From an uncultured virus (IMG/VR IMGVR_UViG_3300023184_000085) (taxonomy: Duplodnaviria > Heunggongvirae > Uroviricota > Caudoviricetes): a stretch of DNA of 20,000 nt. The stretch lies in IMG/VR virus record IMGVR_UViG_3300023184_000085, one strand, 5' to 3'. The position numbers and the translations under genes were made by a program. The notes beneath the pieces are model-generated. The model did no database searches. It saw nothing but the letters and a program-made list of their open reading frames with translations, and was not told where the DNA came from. This document shows, piece by piece, positions 1,088 through 17,984 of the stretch; the first letter of the stretch is position 1; every line of letters begins with the position of its first letter.

Positions 1088-1091
1088 AATC

Positions 1092-1099
1092 TATTTATA
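1092..1099 (-). promoter_or_regulatory. T4-late-type promoter TATAAATA
   Basis: Exact TATAAATA on the minus strand, 4 nt upstream of the ATG at 1087. Confidence 0.65.
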
Positions 1100-1142
1100 T
1101 GAGATATTTATTTTTTTTTTAGTAATAATGACTATATAATAA

Positions 1143-3167: not shown

Positions 3168-4007
3168 ATGTTAAGTATATTTGTAATATATTCTGTAGAC
3201 AGAATAGAACAGTTTGAAATATTCTATGAATGTTTACAAGAAATGCCGGGATACGAAGATTGTCAAAAAATATTAATTGTAGACGGCAAAGAAACTAATG
3301 TTTATCCAGAAGATTTTGAAATATTTTTCTGCGAAAGACCAAACAAACATTTTAATTGGGCAGCAGCTTGGAATCTTGGGGTCGAAAAATCAGCATACGA
3401 AAAAATATGGTATCTAGATTCTGACAGAATATTGCCAATACATTATTTGCAAACATTACAACGAAAAATAAAAGATAATACTTTTATTTATTCTTCTCAA
3501 ATAGTCGCTATGAAACAACATTGTTCTATAGATTTCATAAAAGAATGCCGACAAAATCCATATCTTCATTGGGATTCATATGCAGAAGATTATAGACTTC
3601 CATGTCCTCCGAACATGGAATTTCTAAGCATGGGTAAAAATCCAATGAGTGGAAACACTGGTTTCACCAAAACAAGTTATTATAAATCAGGAGGATTGAG
3701 TCTTGCGTTTGAAGGACCAGCCTTGGCTGATACAGATTATTATTATAAAACTTATTTAAAAAGATTCGATTTTGAAACTATACCATGTTTAGAATTACAC
3801 TTGAAACATAATTATTCGATTTCAGGCAAAGAACGTGATATTATGTATATGTACAATGCGATTAAAATATGCAAAAAATACAATTTAAAGCCAAGCGTAA
3901 AACTACAAGAAAGAATTAAAAACAACAACATAGACATTAGTTTTGCTAAATACGATATTGATAAATTTTTAGAACTGTGTCAAAACAACAAAATAAAATC
4001 ATTTTAA
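3168..4007 (+). CDS. GT-A fold glycosyltransferase (GT2/GT7C-like)
   Basis: AAAWNLGV..S, DxD motif YLDSDRILP, SGN...GG...F.G...D.D and HLKH. Confidence 0.75.
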   Translation: MLSIFVIYSVDRIEQFEIFYECLQEMPGYEDCQKILIVDGKETNVYPEDFEIFFCERPNKHFNWAAAWNLGVEKSAYEKIWYLDSDRILPIHYLQTLQRKIKDNTFIYSSQIVAMKQHCSIDFIKECRQNPYLHWDSYAEDYRLPCPPNMEFLSMGKNPMSGNTGFTKTSYYKSGGLSLAFEGPALADTDYYYKTYLKRFDFETIPCLELHLKHNYSISGKERDIMYMYNAIKICKKYNLKPSVKLQERIKNNNIDISFAKYDIDKFLELCQNNKIKSF

Positions 4008-5452: not shown

Positions 5453-5467
5453 TTTGGTTTCTCTAAT

Positions 5468-6061
5468 TTAAAAATGTATTTTGTATTTACGCCTAATCAG
5501 CTTTATTACTTGTATAGCATCATCCACAGCATTATGCGTTACCTTTTCCTTGATGGAAGCTCTATCCAGACATGTTTCCATGTTGGGCAAATGATTGTCT
5601 TTTAAATGATCAAAATATAGTATAGCAGGATCTATCACCCTAGATCGAAACGAAATGTTAGACCAATCATTTTTTTGTATTTTTTCTTGCAAGAACATTA
5701 AATCAAATGTTGCGAAGTTTTTACCAGCAACATTTAAGTATATTTTCTCATTATCATCGTTGTAACCGTTTACGAAAAGAAAATTACTCAATCTTGTGAA
5801 CAATTCTTCTGGATAACAGATGTAAGGCGAATTATTTTCGACTTTGTTCGAAATGTCTAATAATATATTTCTACTATGTATCTTAATCGCTTTAGGATCG
5901 ACACAATAAGGTTCTTTTTTATTTAAATGATAATGAAAAACTGGTAAGTCTTTTATTGGCAAAGGATTCTTCAAATCATCAAGAACTGCTGCAAATTCTA
6001 AAATATCATGATTCTTAGGATCTAATCCGCTTGTTTCAATATCTATAGATGCGTATTTCAT
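5468..6061 (-). CDS. DEDDh 3'-5' exonuclease (DnaQ/oligoribonuclease-like)
   Basis: ExoI IDIETSGL, ExoII GKNFATFD, RVIDP and ExoIII HNAVDD. The start is more likely the ATG at 6061 (AAGGA upstream) than the TTG at 6100. Confidence 0.88.
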   Translation of the reverse strand: MKYASIDIETSGLDPKNHDILEFAAVLDDLKNPLPIKDLPVFHYHLNKKEPYCVDPKAIKIHSRNILLDISNKVENNSPYICYPEELFTRLSNFLFVNGYNDDNEKIYLNVAGKNFATFDLMFLQEKIQKNDWSNISFRSRVIDPAILYFDHLKDNHLPNMETCLDRASIKEKVTHNAVDDAIQVIKLIRRKYKIHF

Positions 6062-6109
6062 CGTGACTTCCTTATCTTGTTGGGCTGTAATAACGAACAA
6101 AAATTACGA

Positions 6110-6259
6110 TCAAATGTCGTCACATGATTTTTCTTCATTGTTATCGCCTTGTTCTATTTTCTTTTTTCTTTCAGATAACAATTGACAAAGCTCTTGATAT
6201 AAAGAAGGATCTTCCATTTGTATACTGGCCAAAATCCAATCTGATATGTTAGGACTCAT
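6110..6259 (-). CDS. Small hypothetical protein, 49 aa (MSPNISDWILASIQMEDPSLYQELCQLLSERKKKIEQGDNNEEKSCDDI)
   Basis: Manual translation; below the ORF-track cut-off. GGAG SD upstream of the ATG. Fills the gap and is co-oriented with the exonuclease. Confidence 0.6.
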   Translation of the reverse strand: MSPNISDWILASIQMEDPSLYQELCQLLSERKKKIEQGDNNEEKSCDDI

Positions 6260-6323
6260 GTTGACTCCAATTATTAAAAGATCAGAGTACCTTAGAATTC
6301 AAAAAAGTAAATGCGAGAATTAA

Positions 6324-7007
6324 ATGAATTTCCCTTCATTCGATGAAACTTCTATCTTGATAAAAACTCCTTTTTTTAAGATAGAACCAAAAATAATAGA
6401 AAACAACATTCCAAAAAAAATACATCAATTGTGGATAGGAAGCAAAAAACCACCTTTAGATTGGATGCACACATGGAAAATAAAAAATCCTGATTACGAA
6501 TACATTCTTTGGGATGAAGAAAAAATCGAAAAAGAAAATTTTCACAATCAAAGTCTTATCGACAAGATGCCAGAACTTAATGGTAAAGCAGATATAATGA
6601 GATATGAAATTTTGTATAAATATGGAGGATTTTTCATTGATGCGGACAGCGAATGTTTGAGGCCATTAAGCGACGAACTAAGAAACTATGAATTCCTTTC
6701 TTGTTATGAAAACGAAAAAATAAGAGGAGGAGTAGTCTCGTGTGCTATTTTAGGTTGTGCTTCTAATAATCAACTTATGGAAAACTGCATATCAAATCTC
6801 GAAGAACTAAACTTACCTATATCGCCAGCATGGTGGTATGTTGGTCCAATTTTTTTAACTTATGTGATCCATAAGTACAAATACAAAAACATAAACATAT
6901 TGCCATCTTACACATTTATACCATTTCATTATTCTGGAATGAAGTATTCTGGAGAATTTCTACCATTTGCAGATCAAAAATGGGCAACTACTTTGAATTT
7001 ATATTGA
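6324..7007 (+). CDS. Glycosyltransferase, GT32/OCH1-like (DxD sugar-binding)
   Basis: IPKKIHQLWIG, ADIMRYEILYKYGGFFIDAD and VGP.FLT. Confidence 0.9.
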   Translation: MNFPSFDETSILIKTPFFKIEPKIIENNIPKKIHQLWIGSKKPPLDWMHTWKIKNPDYEYILWDEEKIEKENFHNQSLIDKMPELNGKADIMRYEILYKYGGFFIDADSECLRPLSDELRNYEFLSCYENEKIRGGVVSCAILGCASNNQLMENCISNLEELNLPISPAWWYVGPIFLTYVIHKYKYKNINILPSYTFIPFHYSGMKYSGEFLPFADQKWATTLNLY

Positions 7008-7910
7008 TTTAGATTGACAGAATTCCCATGCTAATTTTTCGCAAAAATCTGTAAGATTCAAAAACGAATCCCTGTCTTTTATTAAATCATTGTATTTTAA
7101 AATTACATCATTAAACACAGGATCACAAATCAAATCATATTTTGAATCTTTGTGATCGTATGTGTATCCAGCAGCTGTGTCTTGCAAATCTTTATAAGTA
7201 ATTTCTTTTTTATTCTTAATCATATCAAATATTTTTTTCCAATGCGACCATTCTGGTTTTAAATTTTTATTATATGGATTTGCTAATTTAGACAGCCATC
7301 CGATTAAATACTTAGATTTCATCTGATTTATTGTTCTTATAGGAAAATGACATATTTTAATGTGTTTTGTGGTGTTTCTATTGATGTATTCGTTTTTCCC
7401 GTAATGAACTTCATGTTGACCTTCGACATAATACAATCCTTCACATGATTTAAATATGTTTCTATGGACAATAGCTTTAAGTTGATTTAAATTTATTGCT
7501 TTTGTTCTATGTGTTATTGTATTTAATATGTTTTTATCATTAGTCTCTATAGTGGGAACATAATTATACCAACACGCCATTAACAATTTATTGTCTTCAA
7601 ACACTATATCTTCTAAGTTTTTATCAAAAACAATAAATTCGTCCGCATCTAAAAATACAAACCAATCAGCGATTTCTTTGTATTCATTCAGTATTTTTGT
7701 GGATATTTGCGATTGAATGTGCCAAACGGATTTTTCATCAATTACATCAAGTTTTTTATATTCAGTTTGTAATTTTTTTAAAATCTTTCTTGTATTATCA
7801 GAACTATCGTGTTCGACAATTATTATTTTGTCGAAGTATACAGCGTGGTAACGCACGAATGTTTCGATGATATCTTCTTCATTTTTAACAATTGATGCTA
7901 TTATCTTCAT
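6999..7910 (-). CDS. Glycosyltransferase family 2-like
   Basis: IVKNEEDIIETFVRYH, HDSSDNT, WFVFLDADEF and HFPIRT. Confidence 0.88.
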   Translation of the reverse strand: MKIIASIVKNEEDIIETFVRYHAVYFDKIIIVEHDSSDNTRKILKKLQTEYKKLDVIDEKSVWHIQSQISTKILNEYKEIADWFVFLDADEFIVFDKNLEDIVFEDNKLLMACWYNYVPTIETNDKNILNTITHRTKAINLNQLKAIVHRNIFKSCEGLYYVEGQHEVHYGKNEYINRNTTKHIKICHFPIRTINQMKSKYLIGWLSKLANPYNKNLKPEWSHWKKIFDMIKNKKEITYKDLQDTAAGYTYDHKDSKYDLICDPVFNDVILKYNDLIKDRDSFLNLTDFCEKLAWEFCQSKSI

Positions 7911-8868
7911 GTGAATCGATTAGGAATTTACCCCATTGTTGTGACATGTATTTTGAATCCCATGATTTAATTTCATCGACAATACCATGATGCATTAATT
8001 GAAGTTTCTTTTTATCGCTTTTTAATTCTAATATTTTACCGACACATGAGTCAACATTTCTTTCGATAATATTACAATTACGAAAATAATTACTGTAACC
8101 AACATCGGTACACACAGGAACACATCCGCAAGCAGATGCTTCCAATAATGTACACGGACCTCCTTCCGATTTGGATAGACACAAAAAAACTTTGCATTCA
8201 TTGTAAATTTCATTCATATCTTTTAATGTTCTTTTGTTGTTGAAAGAATCGACATATATTTCTGCGAAATAAATATCTTTATATTTCGATAACTTGTTTT
8301 TTACTTGCTGTAAAATAGAATAACCCTTGTGTTCTAATCGCATCACACTTGATGAAAAAAATACAATAAAATCTCTTTGATCAAATGGTTTTTCTATAAA
8401 GAAAGTACTTAAATCAACGCCATCGTATGTAAGGTGTATATTTTCGAATCCGCTTTTAATCATAATTTCGTAGACATATGGATTGTTTACTGAAACACAA
8501 TTAAATGCTGATATCCTATCTTTTTTAATCATAATTTCATAAGGAGATAATACTTCGTTTATAGTAAGTACAACTTTTGTTCCTTTAAAGTTATGATGCT
8601 TTACAAAACTGACTAAATCTTTAGTTTCAGCAAAATACTGTTCATGCAAATGATGAATAATATCGTAATGTTTTTTTTCTACTTGATCGATCCAATTTAA
8701 ATTTGCGAAACCTATATCGATATCGAATTGTGGAAGATGCTTCTTATAATCTATTCCTTTAAAATGAAAACTCCAATTTGGTGTGTCTGCCAAATACAAA
8801 ACATTTATTTTATTATTTGTACAGTCGAGATTCGGTATTACAATTTTAGGTAATTTATTTAGTTTCAT
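7885..8868 (-). CDS. GT-B glycosyltransferase, family 4
   Basis: DGVD...F, HKG and the EX7E motif SEGGPCTLLEASACGCVPVCTDVG. Confidence 0.9.
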   Translation of the reverse strand: MKLNKLPKIVIPNLDCTNNKINVLYLADTPNWSFHFKGIDYKKHLPQFDIDIGFANLNWIDQVEKKHYDIIHHLHEQYFAETKDLVSFVKHHNFKGTKVVLTINEVLSPYEIMIKKDRISAFNCVSVNNPYVYEIMIKSGFENIHLTYDGVDLSTFFIEKPFDQRDFIVFFSSSVMRLEHKGYSILQQVKNKLSKYKDIYFAEIYVDSFNNKRTLKDMNEIYNECKVFLCLSKSEGGPCTLLEASACGCVPVCTDVGYSNYFRNCNIIERNVDSCVGKILELKSDKKKLQLMHHGIVDEIKSWDSKYMSQQWGKFLIDSHEDNSINC

Positions 8869-9154
8869 TATGTGACAACACTCTAACTATATCGCCAACA
8901 GTAGAAAAGTCTTTATTGTCTATAATATCAATCATGGCATCAATTGTGTCTTGATTTAAATCAGAAATGTCTCCTAAACCTAATATTTTTTTCTTAAGAC
9001 TTTCTTTTGTATAGCCAGATTCTTTCAAACTTTTAACACTAGTAGACATGCCATCCTTGTTGCCCTCTAAGTTTAAAAACTTTAACAACAAGTTCTTATA
9101 ATGATCAAAACCATGTCTTTCTTCTAGCCATAATTTAAAATTTGATTTGTTCAT
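8855..9154 (-). CDS. Hypothetical protein with capsid-targeting-like N-terminus (MNKSNFKLWLEE)
   Basis: 99-aa ORF with AAGGA SD. Overlaps the GT4 start. Confidence 0.75.
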   Translation of the reverse strand: MNKSNFKLWLEERHGFDHYKNLLLKFLNLEGNKDGMSTSVKSLKESGYTKESLKKKILGLGDISDLNQDTIDAMIDIIDNKDFSTVGDIVRVLSHNETK

Positions 9155-9186
9155 TTTGTTCCTTGGTAGCTCTATATAAGATAGAT

Positions 9187-9987
9187 ATGAAAAACATTAT
9201 CAGTAATTTTAAAACATTTTTTGAATTTGCCAATTATGGTTTCGAAGTTCAGACTTCAAAAACTATAGGTGGAACCGTCATGCAAGATGGTGAAAAGCCT
9301 ATTAATTACATAGATTCTAATTTAATTGTGGATGAATTAGTTAGACATAAAATAAACGATGTCGAACCAGTAAATTTTTGGGAAAATGTTGTTCAATGGG
9401 GTTCTGATCCCGGAGCAATTAAATTAGAAATTACACCTCTTGGTTCATATAGAATTGTAATAAGAAAATTAATAAAAGATTTAGTCGGGAATAGCACTTG
9501 GATTACAAAGAATGTAATAGATCTTGATGATGCATATTCTGGTCACAGTGAAATAGCTTATGCCGAAGATTGTTTAGGTATAATTGAAAATCTCAATAAA
9601 GAAAATTTAGATCATGCATCTGCCAACTGCGAAAACTTTGATAAACTTGCTTGGAAGCTATGGAATAAATGTAAGGCTGTGTTTCCTTCTTATATAATGT
9701 TTCCAATAGGCATGAAAAAAATGAGTGAAAATTATTACAAGCTCATATATGAATTTAAAGGTGGTGGCGTAGAAGCTCCAACAAGATCGAGAGCAGAACA
9801 ATTCGATATTGATCTTCATTTCAATAAAACCACAGGAATTATAAAGGCATGGGGATACGATATTGATTCAGATACCAGACAACATAGCTGGAAAATTCAA
9901 ATTTCAGATTTCAACGAATGGTTCGCTCCTTCGCAACCAATGGATGAAATAATAGCTGTAATAAATAATTCGTTTATGACATATTAG
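9187..9987 (+). CDS. Hypothetical protein (266 aa) with N-terminus MKNIISNFKTFFE
   Basis: Long ORF. The ATG at 9187 lies behind TATATA (9173-9178) and is preferred over the TTG at 9142, which overlaps the divergent gene. Confidence 0.8.
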   Translation: MKNIISNFKTFFEFANYGFEVQTSKTIGGTVMQDGEKPINYIDSNLIVDELVRHKINDVEPVNFWENVVQWGSDPGAIKLEITPLGSYRIVIRKLIKDLVGNSTWITKNVIDLDDAYSGHSEIAYAEDCLGIIENLNKENLDHASANCENFDKLAWKLWNKCKAVFPSYIMFPIGMKKMSENYYKLIYEFKGGGVEAPTRSRAEQFDIDLHFNKTTGIIKAWGYDIDSDTRQHSWKIQISDFNEWFAPSQPMDEIIAVINNSFMTY

Positions 9988-9994
9988 GATTTTC

Positions 9995-10483
9995 ATGAAA
10001 AAAAAATACATAAATTATTCTTTAAGTCTTACATTTTTAATGTGCATGTTTATATTTGTTTCTTTGACGAAAATAGATCATGCTGGGCCTCAAAATCACA
10101 TCAGTCAAGATAAATTAACAAATAATGATTATGCACAAAACGAAGAATCGGATAGTTATCAAAAAATTATCCAGAAATCAAAAATAGAAAACAAAAAAAT
10201 AATATTATTTTTTATAGATTCTACATGTGATTGGTCTGACAAATTTTTTGAAACTTTAAAAGACTCGGATGTAAACAGTTATATTTCAGACAATAATTAT
10301 ATTAAATATTATGTTGATGTCGAAAAGAACAAAAATGTATTTTTGAAATACAAAGTCGAATCTACTCCTTGGTATATTGTTGTTGATGAAAACGAAAAAA
10401 TAATTAAGATTGGATCTGGTTACAAACAAAAAAGAGAATTTTTAATTTGGCTAAAAAACATCATTAGAAATAATTCTAAATAA
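9995..10483 (+). CDS. Thioredoxin-fold protein with N-terminal signal/TM segment and CxxS motif
   Basis: Hydrophobic N-terminus, KKIILFFIDSTCDWS, YYVDVE, KYKVESTP (cis-Pro loop) and GY...EF..WL. Confidence 0.75.
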   Translation: MKKKYINYSLSLTFLMCMFIFVSLTKIDHAGPQNHISQDKLTNNDYAQNEESDSYQKIIQKSKIENKKIILFFIDSTCDWSDKFFETLKDSDVNSYISDNNYIKYYVDVEKNKNVFLKYKVESTPWYIVVDENEKIIKIGSGYKQKREFLIWLKNIIRNNSK

Positions 10484-11318
10484 ACTTTCCAAATTTAACT
10501 TTATTGTATTCATCGAAAAATCTTTTTTTAATCACTTCGTTTTTTAGATCATTTGCTGTTTTTACATACAATTTCGCTTCTCTATACCTCTCGTTAACTT
10601 CTATATTCCATTTGTTGCAATACTTCAGCATATTAGCCACACAATTTACTTCTTTTTCATCTTTGGTAAAGAAGCATTCTTTATAAAAAAATTGTTTTTC
10701 ATGATATAAATGTATTTCGTATTGATTGTGATATACAGTGTTACAACTTGAATCAATTAAAACTTTTTGTGTTATATCATTATCGTTAAAGGAATAGCCC
10801 AAGAAAGTTTCATCCATTCCGCCTAATTCTTTGTATTTTTTTTTATAGAACATAACATTACCAGAAAATAAATTTTTACAATTTATCTTGTTTTCTTTTG
10901 ATCTTTCTTCTTGTGTGTAATTAAACGAATTGTTTTCAATAGACTCGTCATCTTCTTCTTTTTCGCATTGTTGAATATATTCAACCGTGACGAAATCATT
11001 TTTACTTAAAGTAACCGCATTGTTGTAAAAATAATTATAAGGTAATATTCTATCGCTATCTAAAATTACAATTTTATCGTTAATTGAATGTTCAACACCT
11101 AAATTGCACATAAAAGGCTTGTTGTATATTTGTAAATTTAAATTGTATTTTTTAATATCAAAAACAGAAGATGTTATTTCTTTATTAAAAGAATCATGAA
11201 ATAAAATTACTAATTCAGAACCTTGTATTTTTATTTCTCTTTTTTCTAAAAGCCTTAACAATTGAAATAAATTTTTAATTCTTGATGAGTGCAAACAGAT
11301 AATAAAAGATATTTTCAT
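10476..11318 (-). CDS. GT-A fold glycosyltransferase (GT2/GT7C-like), paralog of 3168..4007
   Basis: MKISFII, NLGV..S, ILDSDRILP, SGN...LGGMDETFLGYSFND and HLYH. Confidence 0.8.
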   Translation of the reverse strand: MKISFIICLHSSRIKNLFQLLRLLEKREIKIQGSELVILFHDSFNKEITSSVFDIKKYNLNLQIYNKPFMCNLGVEHSINDKIVILDSDRILPYNYFYNNAVTLSKNDFVTVEYIQQCEKEEDDESIENNSFNYTQEERSKENKINCKNLFSGNVMFYKKKYKELGGMDETFLGYSFNDNDITQKVLIDSSCNTVYHNQYEIHLYHEKQFFYKECFFTKDEKEVNCVANMLKYCNKWNIEVNERYREAKLYVKTANDLKNEVIKKRFFDEYNKVKFGKFI

Positions 11319-12064
11319 TTTAATTCATTATAGAATAAAACTTCATATATTTTTTTAGTCTTATCGCTAATAGACACTTTGTATATGTTTAAATCTATGT
11401 TTATTTTATTTAAATCTATTAAGTCTTTGCATTTTTCAAAGTAATTTGAAAGAATTAGGTAGTATGGGCTTATTTTTTGTAAAACTACCCACATTTTAAA
11501 TTCATTATTTGATATTTTTTCTTTATACTCCTTGAACCCATAATCTTTTCCTAATTTTTTATTTAAAAATTCATATGTATTTTTTAATCCAAGAATTACT
11601 TTTTCTGTTGAAATAGAAATTGGAGCATTTACATTTTTGATTCCCGATTTCTTTTGTTTGACAAGAGCATCGTATCTGTATTTCCATAGTTTCCATCTTT
11701 TCCATGCTTTTTCGCCAGCCAAACAATTTATGTTTATAAGTGGCTTTTCGTTGTTGTCTATGTTTATTCTTTTTAAAATATCTAATTGAGCGAAAACATA
11801 AAGGTGGTATTCGTCTTCTGATAATTTATCTTTTGTTTCTCGTTGTAGCTTAAAACAATATTTGAAAACGAGAGACTTTCTAGGATCTCCTTTTAGTTTT
11901 CTTCCAGATGCCATATCAGGGAATAGCTTTCTTAAAGAATCGTGCCAACACAAAGTTATTTTGTAGGCTTTTTCTTCTTCTGCTGTCATTTTGTACTTTT
12001 GTATGGCCATTTCGAGCATTTTATTGAATTCGTGAGAAAAGAATGTATCTTTATTATTTAACAT
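11315..12064 (-). CDS. Hypothetical basic protein (249 aa)
   Basis: Long ORF with TAAATA 4 nt upstream of the ATG and a 4-nt overlap with the downstream GT. No family recognised. Confidence 0.8.
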   Translation of the reverse strand: MLNNKDTFFSHEFNKMLEMAIQKYKMTAEEEKAYKITLCWHDSLRKLFPDMASGRKLKGDPRKSLVFKYCFKLQRETKDKLSEDEYHLYVFAQLDILKRINIDNNEKPLININCLAGEKAWKRWKLWKYRYDALVKQKKSGIKNVNAPISISTEKVILGLKNTYEFLNKKLGKDYGFKEYKEKISNNEFKMWVVLQKISPYYLILSNYFEKCKDLIDLNKINIDLNIYKVSISDKTKKIYEVLFYNELK

Positions 12065-12068
12065 AAAC

Positions 12069-12165
12069 TATTTAACTCGCCACTCTAAAAAATTAACATT
12101 TTAATTAATATATAAATTATGACATCATTTACACAATTTTTAGAACAACGAGATCCAGAACTTTA
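12069..12165. repeat. 97-bp perfect direct repeat, copy 1 (divergent promoter pair plus the first ~15 codons of the 13050 gene)
   Basis: Identical to 13000-13096 by direct comparison. Confidence 0.95.
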
Positions 12166-12187
12166 CGATGAGCTTTTGAAATGTTAA
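12119..12187 (+). pseudogene. Truncated duplicate of the 13050 gene N-terminus (MTSFTQFLEQRDPELYDELLKC*), overlapping the start of the next gene
   Basis: First 16 residues identical to the 13050 product. Stop at 12185-12187 overlaps the ATG at 12181. Confidence 0.7.
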
Positions 12188-12918
12188 AAACTATTAAATG
12201 TGGCTTTATAACATATGCTGATAAAAATTTTTTAAAATCTAAAACAAGAATTTTAGAAGAAGCAAAAAAATTTAGAGAATTTTATAAAATAAAAAGTTTT
12301 GACGTTGAAGATCTGGATGTACATTTTAAAAAAAAATTTAAAAAAATATTAAGTTTTCCAAGAATTGCTGGTTACGGAATATGGAGACCATACATAATTA
12401 AAAAATTTATAATTGATACAAATCCTGATTATTTAGTATATTTAGACGCAGGATCTACGATAAATATCGAAGGGAAAAAAAGATTTTTTGAATATATTAA
12501 AATTTTAAATAATACTGATTGTGGAATAATTTCTTTTGAATTAAAAGGACGATTGCACACAGAAAGATTTTGGACAAATAAAGAAATCTTTGAATATTTT
12601 AATTTATCTTTAGATGGCAAAATAGCATTATCAAATCAATATCTAGATGGTGTATTGATAATGAAAAATAATGTTAATTTAAATAAACTAATAGATCTTT
12701 GGCTTAAATCTGTATATGATAATCCTTATATGTTTACTGATATTTTTAACAATAATCAAAAAGTTTATTTTAAAGATAATCGACATGAACAAAGCGTATT
12801 TAGCATAATAAGAAAAATACATGGATCATTTGTAATCAAAAACGAATCAAATTTTGAATTTTTTGGTTGTGAAGAGTCTTTAAAATATCCTTTTTGGGCT
12901 ACTAGATATCGTGGTTAA
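12181..12918 (+). CDS. Putative GT-A glycosyltransferase-like protein
   Basis: GYGIWRPYII, LVYLDAG and RHEQSVFS motifs. Visibly more AT-rich than its neighbours. Confidence 0.6.
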   Translation: MLKTIKCGFITYADKNFLKSKTRILEEAKKFREFYKIKSFDVEDLDVHFKKKFKKILSFPRIAGYGIWRPYIIKKFIIDTNPDYLVYLDAGSTINIEGKKRFFEYIKILNNTDCGIISFELKGRLHTERFWTNKEIFEYFNLSLDGKIALSNQYLDGVLIMKNNVNLNKLIDLWLKSVYDNPYMFTDIFNNNQKVYFKDNRHEQSVFSIIRKIHGSFVIKNESNFEFFGCEESLKYPFWATRYRG

Positions 12919-12999
12919 ACACACAAGACAATTTACTTAAAACACAATCCAAAATTTTTATATTTATTTAATTAAATATTTGGCGTATATTTGTTCTAT

Positions 13000-13096
13000 T
13001 ATTTAACTCGCCACTCTAAAAAATTAACATTTTAATTAATATATAAATTATGACATCATTTACACAATTTTTAGAACAACGAGATCCAGAACTTTA
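13000..13096. repeat. 97-bp perfect direct repeat, copy 2
   Basis: Identical to 12069-12165 (offset 931 nt). Confidence 0.95.
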
Positions 13097-13910
13097 TAAT
13101 CAACTTATAAATGAAGGGATTTCTGATATTTGGCAAAATACCAAAAATTTCTTTGGTGAATTCTGGAATCGTTTAAAATCGCAAGGAAAAGAATTCCAAG
13201 AAGATGCTGTAAAAATCAAAAAAGCATACGATGAAGGAAAATTAAAACCAAAACAAATAGAAGAAATTAGTGTGGCTTCAAAAAAAGGAGATTGGTGGGG
13301 TGTGGCTAAAATTCTAGCTACTGCTGGAGTTATTGGTTTGTCGGCACTTACTGTTGGTGCTGGTCACGCTTATGCTCCTAATGATATTGGAACTGATTTT
13401 AAATTTTCTCCAGATAATGAAACTTTGATTCAAGGTGAAAAAGATGTACCTAACGACCCAAATGCTACATATGATGTTGCTGCGATCAACAAACTTACAA
13501 TGGACTCTCATAAAGATAAAGATGACTTCCAAACTTCTATAAGAAGTGCAAACCAAGATGATCCAGATGATTTTACAGCTGTACAAAGCAACATAGATCT
13601 TAAATCAAGTCACAGTGAATTAACATCAATGTTGCCAAAAGATATTAAAAATTACATGAAAGAAAAGGGAATCACAGATAATGTACTTACAAATATGGAA
13701 AAAACTGCTTTAAACAAAGATGTTAATTCATTGACGCAATATGATAAAAATACCCTTCGTGGAATAAACAATAAATTAAGTGCTTTTCATTATGTTACTT
13801 CCGACCAAGGAGGGAAACACTTAGCACATGGTTTCTTCGATGCAGAAGGTAAAGCAGGACATATTGATCAATCACCAGATGAAATTTATAATTTAAACAA
13901 AATCAAATAA
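13050..13910 (+). CDS. Hypothetical, probably virion-associated protein with capsid-targeting-like leader and an internal hydrophobic segment
   Basis: MTSFTQFLEQRDPELYNQLINEG leader, WWGVAKILATAGVIGLSALTVGAGHA segment, and TATATA 4 nt before the ATG. Confidence 0.8.
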   Translation: MTSFTQFLEQRDPELYNQLINEGISDIWQNTKNFFGEFWNRLKSQGKEFQEDAVKIKKAYDEGKLKPKQIEEISVASKKGDWWGVAKILATAGVIGLSALTVGAGHAYAPNDIGTDFKFSPDNETLIQGEKDVPNDPNATYDVAAINKLTMDSHKDKDDFQTSIRSANQDDPDDFTAVQSNIDLKSSHSELTSMLPKDIKNYMKEKGITDNVLTNMEKTALNKDVNSLTQYDKNTLRGINNKLSAFHYVTSDQGGKHLAHGFFDAEGKAGHIDQSPDEIYNLNKIK

Positions 13911-13919
13911 ACTATCTCG

Positions 13920-14540
13920 AACTCAATAATTTTTAAAATAAAATCACTCAAAGTTATTACATTAGGGTTGCAATAATTTTAATTAAAGCAACAATGTAAA
14001 TTAATACTTTGAAAACTTTGAATACTGAGATGAAGGCTCTAATCCTTCCATTATTTTATGATTGGCTGCGTTCCCTTGAGTAATTTAATGAAAAAACCTT
14101 GGAGCGTCTTACCCAGATGAAGTCTTAGTTGTTAAACACAATACTGTACGAGCAGTATTCTTCTCCAATGGTCAAGGTAGTCTAGGATAGGAAAAACCAC
14201 CCGAATCTTTAGTTAAACTTAATTAACCTTATGTTTTTCTAGAGCTATCTTAGATTAGGCGACCATAACAAACGCACCATAATGTTAGCGTAACTTTCGG
14301 TTGTTAACTTAAGTTACTAAAGTTTTTAAGTGAAACTATTGTTTCAAATATTAACTCTTAACTTAAGTAACATAATGCTAATGGAAGTAACAATTAAGGT
14401 ATTACTAATTACCTTAATTAAAAATCCATTTCCCCTTAAGTCGGGACCTCGGTACGTAAAAATAATACTATTTAACTAAAAGTAACTGTCTATTGTTTTT
14501 TATGTAAGTGTTTGTTAGATTTCATTTAACAAATATATTT
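13920..14540 (+). ncRNA. Candidate large structured ncRNA and/or replication-origin region
   Basis: No ORF of 60 aa or more. More than 15 nested helices found by eye, several completed by G-U pairs on the + strand (see findings). Ends are approximate. Confidence 0.65.
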
Positions 14541-14551
14541 AGGGAAAATCT

Positions 14552-15856
14552 ATGATTAAGTTCATTTCAGACATAGTTTCGATTAGCGGTACTTCGAGTA
14601 CTTTTTATATAAGTCTAGAAAATGATTCGATTGATTTTACAAACTCTGAAACAAGGCAAATTTTGCGTATTTGTTCTTCTGAGGGAGAATGTAGCATTCC
14701 GATAGAGATAAAGGAATTACCGCTGCTTATTGAGGTTCTAAAAGGCACTGTATTATCAAAGCAATCAAAGGTAGTTGCGTGGAACTGGAAAGACTTCGTT
14801 TCTTATGTTTCATTTCATTTTGGGAAGTTAGTTGAATTTCAAGCTGTAGTACTTGATTTAAAGATTATCGAATCGTATTTTTTCATCAAACAAGAAAAAC
14901 CAGTTAACTATTTGTCTGCTTTGATTCGTTTCAAGAAATTAAAGACAGATAAAGATTGGGAAAAGTTTTACAATATATATAATTCTGTTTATTTGCCTTT
15001 AATCACTTTAGTAATTCCTACGATGGAAAACACGCCTTTACTTGATTGCGAGCTTAAGGATAGGGTATATGCTCATTATTCCATAAACGGACAAGACAAT
15101 GGCAGAATGCTATGTTCTAACGCAAGGATCAAAGGCTACAACCCTCACACGCTATCAAAAGATCAAAAAGGTAAATATAAACCATGCGTTCCTTATAATG
15201 TATTTTTGAATTTTGATTTTAGAAGCATGGAAGTTGCGGTATTGGCTTATCTGGCTAATGACGAAAAGTTATTAGAATTGATTCAAGCACCAGATATTTA
15301 TTCAAGTATATTTGTGGCTATAACAAATAGCGTTGCAGATGACAATTCTAAGATTTTAGCGAAAAAAATATTTTTACCGACTATATATGGCATGTCGGCA
15401 CGGACTCTTGCTGAACAAGCGGATATCCAATTATCTCTTGCCGAACAAATTTGTAGCAATATAAATAAAATATTTTTTAAATCTGTAAATTATGTCAAAG
15501 GCTTCGTGTCTTTGGCTGAATCTCAAGGAACAATAAGTGATTATTTTGGCAAGAGAAGAACATTTACTGAAAATTTCTATAAGGCTCGCAATTTTTGTAT
15601 TCAATCACCTGCATCATTAATTTGTTTAGAAAAATTAGTTCAGTTATGGAAAAAAATACAGCATAAGACTAGAATTTGTTATCATGTACATGATGGTTAT
15701 TATGTATATGCACAAGATGATAATTGGAAAGAAGTGGCTATTGAAGCGAAAAAGGTTCTTGTTGGTGAATCACAAATATGTCCCGGCATGAGATTGAGAG
15801 TGGCTTGTCATGGGGGGACTAAATTAAATAACTTGAAGTCACTCGAAAAGCGATGA
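14552..15856 (+). CDS. polA: Short family A DNA polymerase-like protein with degenerate exonuclease domain and apparently no thumb
   Basis: NGRMLCS (motif 2), DFRSMEVAVLAYLAND (motif A), KILAKKIFLPTIYGMS (motif B), ARNFCIQSPAS (motif 6) and HVHDG (motif C). Confidence 0.88.
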   Translation: MIKFISDIVSISGTSSTFYISLENDSIDFTNSETRQILRICSSEGECSIPIEIKELPLLIEVLKGTVLSKQSKVVAWNWKDFVSYVSFHFGKLVEFQAVVLDLKIIESYFFIKQEKPVNYLSALIRFKKLKTDKDWEKFYNIYNSVYLPLITLVIPTMENTPLLDCELKDRVYAHYSINGQDNGRMLCSNARIKGYNPHTLSKDQKGKYKPCVPYNVFLNFDFRSMEVAVLAYLANDEKLLELIQAPDIYSSIFVAITNSVADDNSKILAKKIFLPTIYGMSARTLAEQADIQLSLAEQICSNINKIFFKSVNYVKGFVSLAESQGTISDYFGKRRTFTENFYKARNFCIQSPASLICLEKLVQLWKKIQHKTRICYHVHDGYYVYAQDDNWKEVAIEAKKVLVGESQICPGMRLRVACHGGTKLNNLKSLEKR

Positions 15857-15860
15857 GTAA

Positions 15861-16424
15861 ATGAAAGAAATATGCAATAATTTTCCAATCACATCAGAAG
15901 AATATTTTGAATTAGATAAAAAATTTGGCAAACTTTGTTATTACGCAGCACATCAATTAAAAAAGAAAAATTCAAAAAACAACTGTGTCGAAGATATAGA
16001 CGATATAAATCAAGAGCTTCAACTTTCTATTATTCGTGCTGGATCTTATTACAAGAGACAGATTTATATTGAAAGTTCACTTGTGTTGGCCAAGGAACAC
16101 ATTAAGAAGACCGTAAAAAATAAAAAGTTAGTTTTAACTTTACAAAATTTGTGGAACAACAGGACTCGTCACGGTGCGAATAGACAAAAATTTGGACCTA
16201 TTCAAGAAAAGTTATTAGACGAATTGATTAAAAAATATGTTCCCAAAGACATCAGACCAAGTAAAACTGAATCGTTAAAAATTGACACAAAGTTTTCGAC
16301 TTATTGTAAAGCAATTGTTTGGAATGGCCAGAAGAGCATGGGCAAGAAAATTACTAGAGAAAAAGCTATTCGATCAGGTTTGGTTAGTTTGTCTGAATAC
16401 GATTATCTTGGTACGAATTTGTAA
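15861..16424 (+). CDS. Sigma70 region-2-like protein (phage sigma factor candidate)
   Basis: DIDDINQELQLSIIRA resembles region 2.2 (DLIQEG.IGL..A) and DTKFSTYCKAIVWN resembles region 2.3 (KFSTYA.WWI). No region 4. Confidence 0.6.
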   Translation: MKEICNNFPITSEEYFELDKKFGKLCYYAAHQLKKKNSKNNCVEDIDDINQELQLSIIRAGSYYKRQIYIESSLVLAKEHIKKTVKNKKLVLTLQNLWNNRTRHGANRQKFGPIQEKLLDELIKKYVPKDIRPSKTESLKIDTKFSTYCKAIVWNGQKSMGKKITREKAIRSGLVSLSEYDYLGTNL

Positions 16425-16481: not shown

Positions 16482-17984
16482 ATGAGTTTGACACCAGAAG
16501 AACAAGCGATAATCGAGTCGTTAACGAATCCAGAAACGCAACAGACGAAGTTTTCATGGGACGATATGTTCCAAAAGAAATTGCTTGGTATGTTGCTTAC
16601 TGATAAATACATGTTGATTCAAAGTATCGACAAACTAAAGCCAGAATATTTTTCAAATGAAATACATGTTCTGATATCGAAAATTTTATTCGACTACTTC
16701 AAAGAAAAGAATTCTATTCCTGATCATTTTATAATGAACACGGAACTCACCTCGAAGATAAAAGACAAAGATAAAACTATTCAGTTGTATCATTGTGCTG
16801 AATTAGGAAGTTTATATAGCTATTATGTTCCCGGACTTGATACGAGAGAATACCTTATCGATAAGGTATTCTACTTTGCTAAAGTACAAGCGGTAAAAGT
16901 AGCATTTCACAATTGTCTTGAAAAAATGAAAAAGGCACCAGAGGAAGAAAAGACTTGGGCGTATGTTTACGAGCAAATGCGTCAGTCTATGTTGATCGAG
17001 CGATCATATGAACCGGGACTTGAATATTTTTTAAATATAGATTTGATGTTTGATCGCATGGAAGATCAGTTCGCTGGTAAGGATAGATTCACATCTGGAT
17101 TTCCTTCTATAGATAACAATTTGACTGGAGGTGGCTTATTTCATGGGCAAATAGCTTCGTGGATAGGATTGCCCGGTACTGGCAAGTCTTTGGCTCTTTC
17201 GAAGGCTGCTGTTGCTAATGTTCTTTTAGGCCATAAAGTTTTATATTTAACTATGGAAATGGATGAGATAGGAATAGCAACAAGATTTACATCTCAATTT
17301 ACAAAGATTGATATAAATTTATTAAAAGAGAACAGAGATCAAGTTAAGAGTACGATTGAAGAATTTAAAAAGGACAAAGAAAATTCTAATCTTTTAATTG
17401 TAAAGCAATTTCCCGGTGGCATGATCGATGTCAATGGTATTAGAGCTTATCACGCTCAATTGCTTCTTAGAGGTTGGAAGCCAGATTTAGTTATTGTCGA
17501 TTATGTCGGAGAAATGAAAGATGACCCGACTGTTAAGAAGTACGAGTCTGCTTATAGAATATTAAGAGATTTAAGAGGTTTCGGGGTCGAACAAAATCAT
17601 TGTACATTTACATGTTTGCAACCAAATCAATCAGCAGCAAAATTAGAATTAAACGAATATATCGACGAATCAAACATAGGAACATCGTTTGATCAATATA
17701 AACCACTTGATGCTTTTTGGTCTATTAATCAAAAAAGTTCCGAGAAGGATGCTGAGATAGGAAGGGTATTTGTTATAAAACACAGAAATGGACAATCAAG
17801 GTTCAATTTTAAAATAGGATTTGATTTATCTATGGGTACATTAGATTTGTATGAAATAACAAATGAAAAATATAAAGAATTATTTAGCACTTCGAATTCT
17901 CAGAAAACAGAAGATTTAAATTTCGATCAGTTTAAAGCTGGTGGTAAAAAGAAAAAATCTGAATCATTCGATGACGAAGAATGA
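16482..17984 (+). CDS. dnaB: Replicative helicase, DnaB/T4 gp41-like
   Basis: SGFPSID..L.GG, Walker A GLPGTGKS, YLTMEM, IVDY, QPNQ and KHRNG. AGGAG SD upstream. Confidence 0.92.
   Translation: MSLTPEEQAIIESLTNPETQQTKFSWDDMFQKKLLGMLLTDKYMLIQSIDKLKPEYFSNEIHVLISKILFDYFKEKNSIPDHFIMNTELTSKIKDKDKTIQLYHCAELGSLYSYYVPGLDTREYLIDKVFYFAKVQAVKVAFHNCLEKMKKAPEEEKTWAYVYEQMRQSMLIERSYEPGLEYFLNIDLMFDRMEDQFAGKDRFTSGFPSIDNNLTGGGLFHGQIASWIGLPGTGKSLALSKAAVANVLLGHKVLYLTMEMDEIGIATRFTSQFTKIDINLLKENRDQVKSTIEEFKKDKENSNLLIVKQFPGGMIDVNGIRAYHAQLLLRGWKPDLVIVDYVGEMKDDPTVKKYESAYRILRDLRGFGVEQNHCTFTCLQPNQSAAKLELNEYIDESNIGTSFDQYKPLDAFWSINQKSSEKDAEIGRVFVIKHRNGQSRFNFKIGFDLSMGTLDLYEITNEKYKELFSTSNSQKTEDLNFDQFKAGGKKKKSESFDDEE

What the first reader, a model, noticed from the sequence alone, without database searches (positions are those of the whole stretch)
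13920..14540. End-to-end secondary structure with G-U pairs favouring the + strand
Helices found by eye: 13948-13955/14014-14021; 13957-13963/13993-13999; 13967-13971/13988-13992; 14032-14036/14044-14048; long-range TGCGTT 14067-14072/AACGCA 14271-14276; 14099-14104/14163-14168; 14140-14146/14153-14159; ATGGTC 14168-14173/GACCAT 14261-14266; 13-bp 14178-14190/14245-14257 (two G-U); 14191-14197/14233-14239; 14285-14291/14375-14381 (one G-U); 14302-14316/14359-14372 (14 bp, one bulge); 14331-14336/14341-14346; 14380-14385/14425-14430; 10-bp 14392-14401/14410-14419; 14453-14462/14497-14506 (one G-U); 14508-14520/14524-14536 (three G-U). The mismatches are repeatedly G-U on the + strand (A-C on the minus strand). 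That pattern fits selection on a single-stranded + strand molecule rather than a DNA cruciform. The size is in the range of large ncRNAs such as ROOL and OLE, but I cannot assign it to a family.
Basis: seen in the sequence. Interest (0 to 1): 0.8.

Follow-up and report, generated by a model that had tools for sequence, protein, structure and literature searches.

The report
Large knotted RNA before phage polymerase
The gene-free gap in front of this huge freshwater phage's DNA polymerase gene encodes a real, roughly 450-500-base RNA folded with several knots, conserved in the same place in many distantly related giant phages and matching no catalogued RNA family; its job, probably tied to starting or controlling DNA replication, is not yet known.

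Summary
The + strand folds far better than shuffles (z -6.0; - strand -2.8). The window comes from a huge uncultured freshwater phage.

The gap lies between an orphan ORF and a compact family-A DNA polymerase gene. Related phages, whose polymerases are only 35-41% identical, carry the same element upstream of polA on the same strand. A covariance model built without the window finds it at 14088-14182 (+, 45.5 bits, E 9e-10).

Covariation supports the core junction. Neither Rfam 15 nor four literature searches gave a match.

RNA-library contigs from four lake studies cover the core. The conserved RNA spans about 14008/14024 to 14456/14506.

Function is inferred. It is most likely a dedicated leader or partner RNA of the conserved polA / sigma-2-like / DnaB replication cassette. 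A primer or origin RNA is the main rival.

The parts
13948..14021 (+). They are specific to the window, lie outside the conserved RNA, and overlap the putative promoter.
   Evidence: The pairs are verified. No counterpart appears in the 16 aligned relatives. Their function is unknown; they may be the terminator of the upstream ORF.
13995..14002 (+). Putative extended -10 (TG-n-TAAATT) of the RNA's promoter. The transcription start would fall near 14008-14010.
   Evidence: Inference by position. Relatives L071 and L077 have TATAAT about 7 nt before the homologous 5' sequence, and L023 has a 12/12 TTGACA-17-TATAAT with TG directly before its RNA. The tool's own best + strand site in the window is TTGATC-17-TATAAT at 13864-13892. 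Not shown experimentally.
14008..14506 (+). Inferred extent of the RNA gene. The covariation-supported part is 14024-14456.
   Evidence: Alignment A4 of 17 members, CM matches, and RNA-library contigs covering 13977-14413. Neither end has been mapped.
14024..14048 (+). Conserved ACUGAGA motif (14024-30) followed by hairpin P1 (14032-36/14044-48).
   Evidence: P1 covaries: GAAGG/CCUUC, GGACA/UGUCC, GGUAG/CUACC, UGGAG/CUCCA. In the partner-swap test 1/20000 permutations scored as well. This hairpin is the source of the weak tRNA-model and terminator-like hits. It is absent or replaced in clade A1.
14067..14072 (+). PK1 5' strand (UGCGUU), in the loop of the weak hairpin P2. It pairs with 14271-14276.
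Evidence: It covaries: CGUACU/AGUACG, UGUACU/AGUACA, GCGCU/AGCGC, GUGCU/AGCAC, GAUACC/GGUAUC, AGUAUC/GAUACU. Partner-swap test 6/20000.
14096..14178 (+). Core junction, made of P_o (14096-99/14175-78), P_a (14099-104/14163-68), P_b (14105-09/14115-19), the conserved joiner AAGUCUUAG (14120-28), P_c (14128-30/14135-37, minimal here) and P_d (14140-46/14153-59, loop UACGAG 14147-52).
   Evidence: CM R1, built without the window, matches 14088-14182 on the + strand at 45.5 bits, E 8.8e-10. R2 gives 53.9 bits. P_a partner-swap test 0/20000.
14168..14173 (+). P_e 5' strand (AUGGUC), pairing with 14261-14266 (GACCAU). It forms a pseudoknot with P_o.
Evidence: Fifteen distinct duplex variants occur among 17 members, for example GCAACA/UGUUGC, ACAGAG/CUCUGU, CCAGC/GCUGG and AAGCC/GGCUU. 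Partner-swap test 0/20000.
14178..14257 (+). Long hairpin domain P_f (14178-90/14245-57, with the inner window-specific 14191-97/14233-39). Its internal loop carries the PK2 5' strand CCCGA (14200-04).
   Evidence: The pairs are verified. A homologous helix is present in relatives with different sequence.
14253..14276 (+). Conserved GAUUAGG (14253-59), then the P_e 3' strand (14261-66), then the PK1 3' strand AACGCA (14271-76).
   Evidence: Alignment A4 and the duplex tables.
14285..14381 (+). Long hairpin of the 3' domain (14285-91/14375-81; 14302-16/14359-72; tip 14331-36/14341-46).
   Evidence: The pairs are verified. Relatives have a long hairpin at the same place, capped by a 3-bp stem with a UUAAAC loop that covaries (AGC/GCU, GGC/GCC, UGU/ACA; helix 7). 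The window's tip differs from that consensus.
14380..14430 (+). Hairpin 14380-85/14425-30 enclosing 14392-401/14410-19.
   Evidence: The pairs are verified. Relatives have a hairpin of variable sequence at the same position.
14436..14456 (+). 3' motif UUAAGUCGGGACCUCGGUACG. UCGGG (14441-45) pairs with CCCGA 14200-04 to form PK2. CUCG (14448-51) pairs with CGAG 14149-52 in the P_d loop to form PK3.
   Evidence: On structure-blind alignment A4, PK3 column pair 159/641 reads AU:9, GC:8, none unpaired. PK2 column pair 214/635 reads UA:9, CG:7, AU:1, none unpaired. More variants occur in divergent loci: CAAG/CUUG, GCAGAC/GUCUGC, GGCAGGC/GCCUGCC, GCGGAC/GUCCGC.
14453..14506 (+). Terminal hairpin (14453-62/14497-506), the probable 3' end region of the RNA.
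   Evidence: The pairs are verified. Relatives have a short hairpin right after the 3' motif with a GAUUGUAAA-like loop. No canonical terminator was called here.
14508..14551 (+). This lies outside the conserved RNA.
   Evidence: The pairs are verified. A promoter-like TTGTTA-16-TATATT sits at 14512-14539. Promoter-like scores in this interval are not clearly above shuffles across the family (8.69 against 8.19).
14552..15856 (+). Compact family-A DNA polymerase (434 aa).
   Evidence: PF00476, E 2e-23. AlphaFold model with pLDDT 93.6. It matches Klenow, Bst, Pol nu and Pol theta polymerase domains at TMq 0.7-0.8.
15861..16424 (+). Highly conserved basic helical protein (187 aa), possibly sigma region-2-like.
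   Evidence: Found downstream of polA in 80 of 80 loci. It is 58-70% identical across lineages. Pfam, PHROGs and PDB sequence searches gave no significant match. VIA-align returns many sigma-2 domains at Z 6-7.5, which is middling.
16482..17984 (+). DnaB-like replicative helicase.
   Evidence: phrog_19, E 7e-52, and PF03796.

Best explanation
The gap encodes a new family of large (about 450-500 nt), compactly folded non-coding RNA. It is transcribed on the + strand from a promoter at its own 5' edge. It always sits directly in front of the polA / small sigma-2-like protein / DnaB cassette of huge freshwater phages. The fold has a multi-helix core junction (P_o, P_a, P_b, P_c, P_d) and a long hairpin domain (P_f). 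Four long-range pairings lock it: PK1, P_e crossing P_o, PK2 and PK3. One 3' motif (AAGUCRGC..CYCGGU) clamps two distant loops at once. That much is shown. The rest is inferred. Because orientation, position and spacing to polA are fixed while the upstream neighbour changes, I take it to be the dedicated head of the replication transcription unit. On this view it is a structured leader or partner RNA that sets when and how much of the minimal replisome is made or becomes active, most likely by binding a protein of the cassette or a small ligand.
For: Structure. The + strand folds at z -6.0 and the - strand at -2.8. All 16 equal-length helices are verified.

Homology. A 75-nt block recurs upstream of polA, always on the + strand, in 43 of 85 polymerase-derived loci (nhmmer E<1e-3). 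CMs add L022, L043, L044, L054, L073, L079 and L080. R1, built without the window, hits 14088-14182 at E 8.8e-10.

Covariation on a structure-blind MAFFT alignment of 17 members. 91.2% of cells are paired against 78.7 +/- 0.8 in shuffles (0/500). 22 of 37 pairs changed on both sides against 12.6 (0/500). Slid partners give 29-43% paired. Partner-swap tests gave P_e 0/20000, PK2 0/20000, P_a 0/20000, P1 1/20000 and PK1 6/20000.

Strand. G-U 28 against A-C 4.

Promoter. L023 has a 12/12 TTGACA-17-TATAAT with TG directly at the RNA's 5' edge. The best sigma-70-like score upstream of the RNA averages 9.66 in 16 members against 8.22 in shuffles.

Linkage. The order RNA, polA, 185-aa protein holds in 17 of 17 lineages examined. 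The upstream gene is of at least three unrelated kinds, and in five lineages it is on the opposite strand. The RNA is single-copy in two large contigs.

No intrinsic terminator was called between the RNA and polA in the window or in L023.

RNA libraries. Contigs from four lake metatranscriptome studies all cover 14037-14181 at 99% or more.
Against: No experiment shows the RNA's ends, whether it is co-transcribed with polA, or what it binds. The RNA-library data are assembled contigs, so they give no strand or ends and could include DNA carry-over. The element is far larger and more knotted than any known translational operator or leader of a replication gene. A perfect-consensus promoter fits an abundant stand-alone RNA as well as a leader. 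I found no conserved pairing between the RNA and the polA ribosome-binding site (by eye). Fourteen polymerase lineages gave no model match. Two of those, L048 and L033, look like divergent members by eye. All 17 aligned sequences are related, so shuffle and permutation counts overstate independence.
Confidence: 0.45

Rival explanations
1. Replication-initiation RNA. The transcript acts as a pre-primer or origin-defining RNA, comparable in logic to ColE1 RNA II or to the R-loop origins of T4 and mitochondria. Its 3' part would hybridise to DNA just upstream of polA and be extended by the phage's minimal PolA, with DnaB loaded on the displaced strand.
For: The RNA is co-oriented and contiguous with a cassette made only of replication proteins: polA, a DNA/RNA-binding-looking 185-aa protein and DnaB. 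It has a strong promoter at its 5' edge. Its size is like RNA II (recalled). Cumulative GC skew has its minimum at about 12 kb and rises through the locus. The polymerase has a much reduced thumb region and no exonuclease domain of its own (exonuclease subunit at 5468-6100).
Against: The skew minimum coincides with a switch of gene orientation at 12.06/12.18 kb, about 2 kb from the RNA. No iterons or other direct repeats occur around the locus: 2 trivial families in 11800-14700. A primer needs a free 3' region, whereas here the 3' motif is locked into two pseudoknots that covary. Nothing comparable to this tertiary fold is needed by known primer RNAs (established knowledge, recalled).
Confidence: 0.2
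2. A stand-alone, trans-acting stable RNA that merely travels with the replication genes. It could be a ribozyme or the RNA core of an RNP, for example a scaffold, a decoy or an anti-defence RNA.
For: Conserved unpaired nucleotides sit in joiners and loops (AAGUCUUUGUAG, ACGRG, GAUUUAGG, UUAAAC, GCAGACAAG). The multi-pseudoknot compaction is typical of catalytic or ornate RNAs. One clade has a perfect-consensus promoter. The core was recovered in RNA libraries of four studies.
Against: A trans-acting gene has no need to keep strand, position and spacing relative to polA while the other neighbour changes. Anti-defence genes usually sit in variable regions (established knowledge, recalled). No match was found to any ribozyme or large-RNA model in Rfam 15.
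Confidence: 0.2
3. A DNA-level element, such as a cruciform, a single-stranded DNA origin or a packaging site, or chance hairpins in AT-rich spacer DNA.
For: The spacer is AT-rich with many inverted repeats, and the - strand also folds better than shuffles (z -2.84).
Against: G-U is tolerated on the + strand only (7 against 0 in the window; 28 against 4 in the family). Compensatory changes preserve loop-to-strand pseudoknots that a DNA cruciform cannot form. All 44 HMM matches and all CM matches upstream of polA are on the + strand. Contigs are present in RNA libraries.
Confidence: 0.03
4. A highly diverged member of an already described family (group I/II intron, RNase P, tRNA-like element, GOLLD/ROOL/OLE/HEARO/raiA) that the models missed, or a family published outside the searched literature.
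For: A weak tRNA-model hit at 13990-14056 (20.9 bits, E 0.18). GOLLD and ROOL are also phage-associated (abstract of PMC12286853 as listed).
Against: There were 0 gathering-level matches in the window. At E<=10 on the region only three sub-threshold hits appeared. At E<=1 on ten diverse members only chance miRNA hits appeared. ARAGORN found 0 tRNAs. The flanking ORFs are complete, with a stop at 13910 and a polA start conserved in 56 homologs of like length, so this is not an intron. Four literature searches found no description.
Confidence: 0.05

Closest known systems
Large 'ornate' bacterial and phage RNAs of unknown or emerging function (GOLLD, ROOL, OLE, HEARO, raiA)
   Same: Several hundred nucleotides long and non-coding. 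Many covarying helices and pseudoknots. Found by comparative genomics in uncultured material. GOLLD and ROOL are also carried by phages (abstract of PMC12286853 in the listing).
   Different: No sequence or structure match to any Rfam 15 model. It has fixed synteny directly 5' of a polA-DnaB cassette. GOLLD and ROOL are said to lie near tRNAs (recalled), and the window has no tRNA. Oligomerisation has not been tested.
ColE1-type primer RNA II (extended by DNA polymerase I)
   Same: A structured RNA of some 500 nt, made from its own promoter and functionally tied to a family-A polymerase (recalled knowledge). Here the RNA gene abuts the polA gene.
   Different: No origin features were found. 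The 3' end is locked in covarying pseudoknots. RNase H processing and hybrid formation were not testable. It is a phage element, not a plasmid one.
Translational operators and leaders of phage replication genes (T4 gene 43 operator, gene 32 leader pseudoknot)
   Same: A structured RNA immediately 5' of a replication gene on the same strand, and a candidate binding site for a replication protein (recalled knowledge).
   Different: It is ten times larger, with at least four long-range pairings. No pairing to the polA ribosome-binding site was found. Co-transcription has not been shown.
Partner RNAs encoded just 5' of a nucleic-acid enzyme (retron msr-msd with its RT, omega RNA with IscB/TnpB)
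   Same: A conserved structured RNA directly upstream of, and co-oriented with, a polymerase or nuclease gene (recalled knowledge).
   Different: The enzyme here is a DNA-dependent family-A polymerase inside a replication module, not a mobile or defence element. No template or guide segment is evident.

Membership tests
New family: knotted RNA upstream of compact polA (defined here) | Core junction (P_o/P_a enclosing P_b, optional P_c, and P_d with an ACGRG loop), scored by a covariance model built without the window | tested here: met
   R1 matches window 14088-14182 on the + strand, full model, at 45.5 bits, E 8.8e-10. R2 gives 53.9 bits.
New family: knotted RNA upstream of compact polA (defined here) | A 3' motif that pairs both with the P_f internal loop (PK2) and with the P_d loop (PK3) | tested here: met
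   In the window, CCCGA 14200-04 pairs with UCGGG 14441-45, and CGAG 14149-52 pairs with CUCG 14448-51. The family columns covary with no unpaired cell at the variable positions.
New family: knotted RNA upstream of compact polA (defined here) | Position directly 5' of the compact polA, on the same strand | tested here: met
   The window RNA ends about 50-100 nt before the polA start at 14552. The same holds in all 44 HMM hits and in 17 of 17 lineages examined.
GOLLD / ROOL / OLE / HEARO / raiA (Rfam families; that Rfam holds them is recalled) | Match to the family's covariance model at or near its gathering score | tested here: not met
   There were 0 matches at gathering in the 20-kb window. 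None of these families appeared at E<=10 on 13700-14800 or at E<=1 on ten diverse members.
tRNA / tRNA-like element | Cloverleaf scoring above the Rfam gathering score, or called by ARAGORN | tested here: not met
   RF00005 scores 20.9 bits against a gathering score of 29, with D and anticodon arms unpaired. ARAGORN found 0 genes.
Self-splicing intron (group I or II) | Interrupts a gene whose exons join into one reading frame, with a match to intron models | tested here: not met
   The upstream ORF ends with a stop at 13910. polA has its own start, and 56 homologs of 299-483 aa align over 68-100% of the query. No intron family appeared in the Rfam scans.
ColE1-like primer RNA | A persistent RNA-DNA hybrid at an origin, processed by RNase H and extended by PolA | not testable with these tools
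   Only indirect data are available: no iterons, and a GC-skew minimum about 2 kb away at a switch of gene orientation.
cis-acting leader / translational operator of polA | Co-transcription with polA, and an effect on its expression | tested here: inconclusive
   No terminator was called between the RNA and polA. Promoter-like scores in that interval are about at shuffle level. The RNA-library contigs cannot show transcript continuity.

The most novel reading that the evidence does not exclude
The RNA is a working part of a minimal phage replisome or initiation machine. On this reading the locus is a four-part cassette: a knotted RNA, a thumb-reduced exonuclease-less PolA, a sigma-2-like strand-separating protein and DnaB. 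The RNA would serve as origin-specifying primer or as a structural subunit of the polymerase. That would be an RNA-dependent DNA-replication start-up system not described in any phage.
Probability: 0.2. Interest if true: 0.9.

Novelty: categorically new. Interest (0 to 1): 0.78.

Why it matters
Large RNAs with intricate tertiary folds are rare. The few known ones (ribosomal RNAs, RNase P, introns, OLE, GOLLD, ROOL, raiA) have each opened a field. This one is strictly linked to the replication core of a widespread group of 200-530 kb freshwater phages. It has been kept while the polymerase itself diverged to 35-41% identity. It therefore probably does something essential for replication or its control. 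It also gives a concrete, testable handle (RNA plus three small proteins) on how uncultured huge phages start DNA synthesis. It is compact enough for cryo-EM and for heterologous tests. Other agents of this scan noted look-alike elements in three other genomes, so the family is recurrent. I found no description in Rfam 15 or in four literature searches.

Tried and rejected
- **GenBank phages.** blastn (distant mode) of the gap against 50,697 phage records gave no match.
- **Own assembly.** It is not held. The nearest record, G001, is 99% identical and so useless for covariation.
- **Close relatives.** The first related-loci run with the single protein returned only 99% relatives.
- **Pattern scans.**
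  - In genome contigs there were 106 matches, and 0 were confirmed by nhmmer, so they are chance. No evidence of the RNA in bacterial or archaeal genomes was obtained this way.
  - In viral contigs 24 of 58 matches were chance, and in metagenome contigs 104 of 119.
  - None of the 24 chance viral-contig loci matched R1.
- **Model-negative lineages.** R1 and R2 gave no match upstream of polA in 14 polymerase lineages even with filters off. L048 and L033 nevertheless look like divergent members by eye. L009 and L064 remain unclear.
- **Helices not formally counted.** MAFFT columns for P1, P2, P_a, P_e, P_f and PK1 are out of register between clades, so they could not go into the count of structure pairs. 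I used best-duplex tables and partner-swap permutations instead, which involve a fitting step.
- **tRNA-like reading of P1.** Rejected.
- **Iterons or direct repeats.** None of note.
- **Promoter between RNA and polA.** Not clearly enriched.
- **RNA libraries.** No contig bridged the RNA and polA, and parts of the stretch had no cover. Nothing is concluded from that.
- **The 185-aa protein.**
  - No Pfam, PHROGs or PDB sequence match.
  - Foldseek gave nothing at E<=0.001.
  - VIA-align returned sigma-2 rows only at Z 6-7.5, within the range common for helical bundles.
- **Third covariance model.** Not built, because no register-consistent seed for the full RNA was available.
- **The search of earlier findings.** Look-ups by place and by sequence returned nothing.
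- **Literature.** Four searches returned no paper describing this element; only listings and abstract starts were seen.
Full report
**What the window is.** The 20-kb window is AT-rich (about 31% GC) and phage-like.
- It encodes an SbcD-like nuclease, a Dda-like helicase, a second helicase and a polymerase exonuclease subunit.
- It also encodes five glycosyltransferase-type proteins, a thioredoxin-like protein, a compact family-A DNA polymerase, a DnaB-like helicase and a DNA methylase.
- Its own assembly is not held. The nearest record is a 36.8-kb viral contig, 99% identical and rated 8% complete.
- Relatives of its polymerase sit on viral contigs of up to 532 kb and on metagenome contigs of up to 673 kb.
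- So this is a huge uncultured phage. DNA and RNA runs that hold the stretch are lake or freshwater metagenomes.

**The observation.**
- The stretch 13911-14551 lies between an orphan 286-aa ORF (13050-13910; no Pfam or PHROG match) and polA (14552-15856).
- The + strand folds to -146.7 kcal/mol against -115.6 +/- 5.2 for shuffles (z -6.0). The - strand gives z -2.84 (20 shuffles each).

**Not a known family.**
- Rfam 15 gave 0 matches at gathering thresholds in the whole window.
- With permissive filters on 13700-14800 it gave only a sub-threshold tRNA hit (20.9 bits against 29) and two chance snoRNA hits.
- ARAGORN found no tRNA.
- Ten diverse homologous loci scanned at E<=1 gave only chance miRNA hairpin hits.
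- blastn against 50,697 GenBank phage records found nothing.
- Four full-text literature searches returned no description. I saw listings and abstract starts only.

**Homologs.**
- An alignment of 20 polymerase homologs recovered 80 viral loci.
- 65 of the 85 loci then held have an ORF-free gap of at least 250 nt, mostly right upstream of polA.
- All-against-all blastn showed a conserved block of about 75 nt inside these gaps, which also matched the window.
- An HMM of that block hits 44 of 85 loci at E<=1. Every hit is on the polA strand and 400-550 nt before the start codon.
- A motif pattern independent of the polymerase recovered 58 viral, 119 metagenome and 106 prokaryote-genome stretches. 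nhmmer confirmed 34, 15 and 0 of these.
- Members collapse to about 17-18 clusters at 93% identity.

**Independent membership test.**
- A covariance model (R1; 102 positions, 24 pairs) was built from 16 relatives without the window.
- It matches window 14088-14182 on the + strand over its full length at 45.5 bits, E 8.8e-10. The seeds score 81-101 bits.
- With filters off it also finds weaker matches at the same place upstream of polA in L022, L079, L043, L073 and L054. These lack hairpin P_c but keep the ACGAG-type loop.
- A second model (R2) adds L044 and L080, and scores the window at 53.9 bits.
- Read by eye, these divergent loci and also L048 and L033 show the whole architecture.
- Fourteen lineages stay negative with the models, so 47 of 80 loci is a lower bound.

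**The fold (window coordinates).** From the 5' end:
- the ACUGAGA motif and hairpin P1 (14032-36/14044-48);
- a weak hairpin P2, whose loop UGCGUU (14067-72) pairs far downstream with AACGCA (14271-76) to form PK1;
- the core junction, made of P_o (14096-99/14175-78), P_a (14099-104/14163-68), P_b (14105-09/14115-19), the conserved joiner AAGUCUUAG, a minimal P_c, and P_d (14140-46/14153-59) with loop UACGAG;
- P_e (14168-73/14261-66), which crosses P_o;
- the long hairpin P_f (14178-90/14245-57);
- the conserved GAUUAGG;
- a 3' domain of two long hairpins (14285-14381 and 14380-14430);
- the 3' motif UUAAGUCGGGACCUCGGUACG (14436-56).

In that motif, UCGGG pairs with CCCGA in the P_f internal loop (14200-04) to form PK2. 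CUCG pairs with CGAG in the P_d loop (14149-52) to form PK3. A terminal hairpin follows.

**Covariation.**
- RNAalifold on the 16-sequence core found 19 pairs, 13 with compensatory changes.
- I tested 37 pairs in 7 helices on the structure-blind full-length MAFFT alignment of 17 members (A4).
  - 91.2% of cells are paired, against 78.7 +/- 0.8 in shuffles (0/500).
  - 22 pairs changed on both sides, against 12.6 +/- 1.7 (0/500).
  - The covariation score is 0.392 against 0.163.
  - Sliding the 3' partner by 1-3 columns drops pairing to 29-43%.
- The variable position of PK3 reads A-U in 9 and G-C in 8 sequences, with none unpaired.
- The variable position of PK2 reads U-A 9, C-G 7 and A-U 1, with none unpaired.
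- Some helices are out of register between clades in MAFFT, so I used best-duplex tables and partner-swap permutations for them. The results were P_e 0/20000, PK2 0/20000, P_a 0/20000, P1 1/20000 and PK1 6/20000.
- These tests contain a fitting step and the sequences are related, so the counts are not probabilities.
- The many distinct duplex variants are hard to explain otherwise. P_e has 15. PK1 includes CGUACU/AGUACG, GAUACC/GGUAUC, GCGCU/AGCGC and UGCGUU/AACGCA.
- G-U outnumbers A-C 28 to 4 in the consensus pairs.

- Supported by the family: 14032/14044, 14067/14271, 14099/14163, 14140/14153, 14168/14261 and 14178/14245.
- Supported by position only: the 3'-domain hairpins and the terminal hairpin.
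- Window-specific: 14191-97/14233-39 and the hairpin tip 14331-36/14341-46.
- Outside the conserved RNA: the three 5' helices (13948-14021), which overlap the likely promoter, and 14508-36, which overlaps the polA leader.

**Transcription.**
- In clade A1 a consensus sigma-70 promoter sits exactly at the RNA's 5' edge. L023 has 12/12 with TG by the tool. L050, L010 and L021 score 12, 11 and 10.5 by my script.
- In L071 and L077 a TATAAT lies about 7 nt before the conserved 5' sequence.
- Across 16 members, the best promoter-like score upstream of the RNA averages 9.66 against 8.22 in shuffles. Between the RNA and polA it averages 8.69 against 8.19.
- In the window the homologous place has TG-n-TAAATT at 13995-14002. 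This is an inference.
- No intrinsic terminator was called between the RNA and polA.
- Six lake metatranscriptome runs hold part of the stretch. In the four I laid, from four studies, contigs at 99% or more cover 13977-14413, 14026-14181, 14031-14197 and 14037-14187. All four therefore include the core, and some flanking coding pieces appear as well.
- These are assembled contigs. They show presence in RNA libraries, not strand, ends or level.

**Context.**
- The order RNA, polA, 185-aa protein holds in 17 of 17 lineages examined, with DnaB next in 13 of them.
- The upstream gene is of at least three unrelated kinds and lies on the opposite strand in five lineages. The window's own upstream ORF has no homolog in the set.
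- The RNA is single-copy in a 225-kb and a 381-kb contig.
- The 185-aa protein follows polA in 80 of 80 loci. It is 58-70% identical to the window's copy where polA is 35-41%.
- That protein is basic and all-helical (pLDDT 82) and has no sequence-family match. Foldseek found nothing. VIA-align lists many sigma region-2 domains, but only at Z 6-7.5.
- The polymerase model (pLDDT 93.6) superposes on Klenow-type large fragments (TMq 0.7-0.8) although it is about 150 residues shorter. Only two helices (120-159) lie between the N-terminal alpha/beta domain and the palm.

**Interpretation.**
- Shown: this is a new, conserved, pseudoknotted + strand RNA family fixed to the head of the polA cassette.
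- Inferred: it works for that cassette.
- I favour a dedicated leader or partner RNA controlling expression or activity of the minimal replisome (0.45). The reasons are the fixed strand, position and spacing, and the absence of a called terminator.
- A primer or origin RNA (0.2) and an unrelated trans-acting RNP or ribozyme (0.2) remain open.
- DNA-level or chance explanations (0.03) and a missed known family (0.05) are unlikely.

**Earlier notes of this scan.** Three notes (e1-6084568, e1-6025011, e1-5702915) describe look-alike RNAs upstream of compact polA genes in other genomes. They agree with what I derived independently before reading them. I could not compare their sequences, so they are not counted as evidence.

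Noticed in passing
window 15861-16424 (+): A 187-aa basic, all-helical protein lies between polA and dnaB. It is present downstream of polA in 80 of 80 related loci. It is 58-70% identical across lineages whose polymerases are only 35-41% identical. It has no sequence-family match. VIA-align lists many sigma region-2 domains at middling Z (6-7.5). It is a candidate partner of the polymerase or of the RNA.
   Followed up: partly
window 14552-15856 (+) and 5468-6100 (-): The polymerase is a stripped-down family-A enzyme of 434 aa. Only two helices lie where Klenow-type enzymes have the thumb. The proofreading exonuclease is a separate gene 8 kb away on the other strand.
   Followed up: partly
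window 761-1139, both strands: A locally GC-richer stretch is open on both strands. It encodes Pro/Gly/Ala-rich low-complexity peptides (108 aa on the - strand, 120 aa on the + strand). No Pfam match was found for the - strand product.
   Followed up: no
window 3168-12918: A cluster of five glycosyltransferase-type genes (3168-4007, 6324-7007, 6999-7910, 7885-8868, 10476-11318) and a thioredoxin-like gene (9995-10483) is embedded among the replication genes. This may be a DNA- or surface-glycosylation module.
   Followed up: partly
window about 11500-12200: Cumulative GC skew reaches its minimum here. That is also where gene orientation switches (- strand genes end at 12064, + strand genes start at 12181). 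It could mark an origin or only the transcription switch.
   Followed up: no
L023 1827-1855; L050, L010, L021 at the equivalent place: One clade of the RNA family has a perfect or near-perfect sigma-70 consensus promoter (TTGACA-17-TATAAT with TG) at the RNA's 5' edge, and it lacks hairpin P1. Other clades instead start with a conserved CUUGUCAxAGAAAC...ACURAGA leader before P1.
   Followed up: partly
L048 1840-2270; L033 2060-2400: Two polymerase lineages are negative with both covariance models but still show the architecture by eye: the ACGAG/ACGGGG loop, the CYCGGU 3' motif, and the PK1 and PK2 complements. The family is therefore wider than the models detect. L009 and L064 have long gaps of unclear content.
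   Followed up: partly
window 14508-14536 (+): A 13-bp hairpin with three G-U pairs sits between the RNA and the polA start. It overlaps a promoter-like site (14512-14539) and ends 16 nt before the start codon. It may be a separate control element of polA. It is not conserved in sequence in relatives.
   Followed up: no
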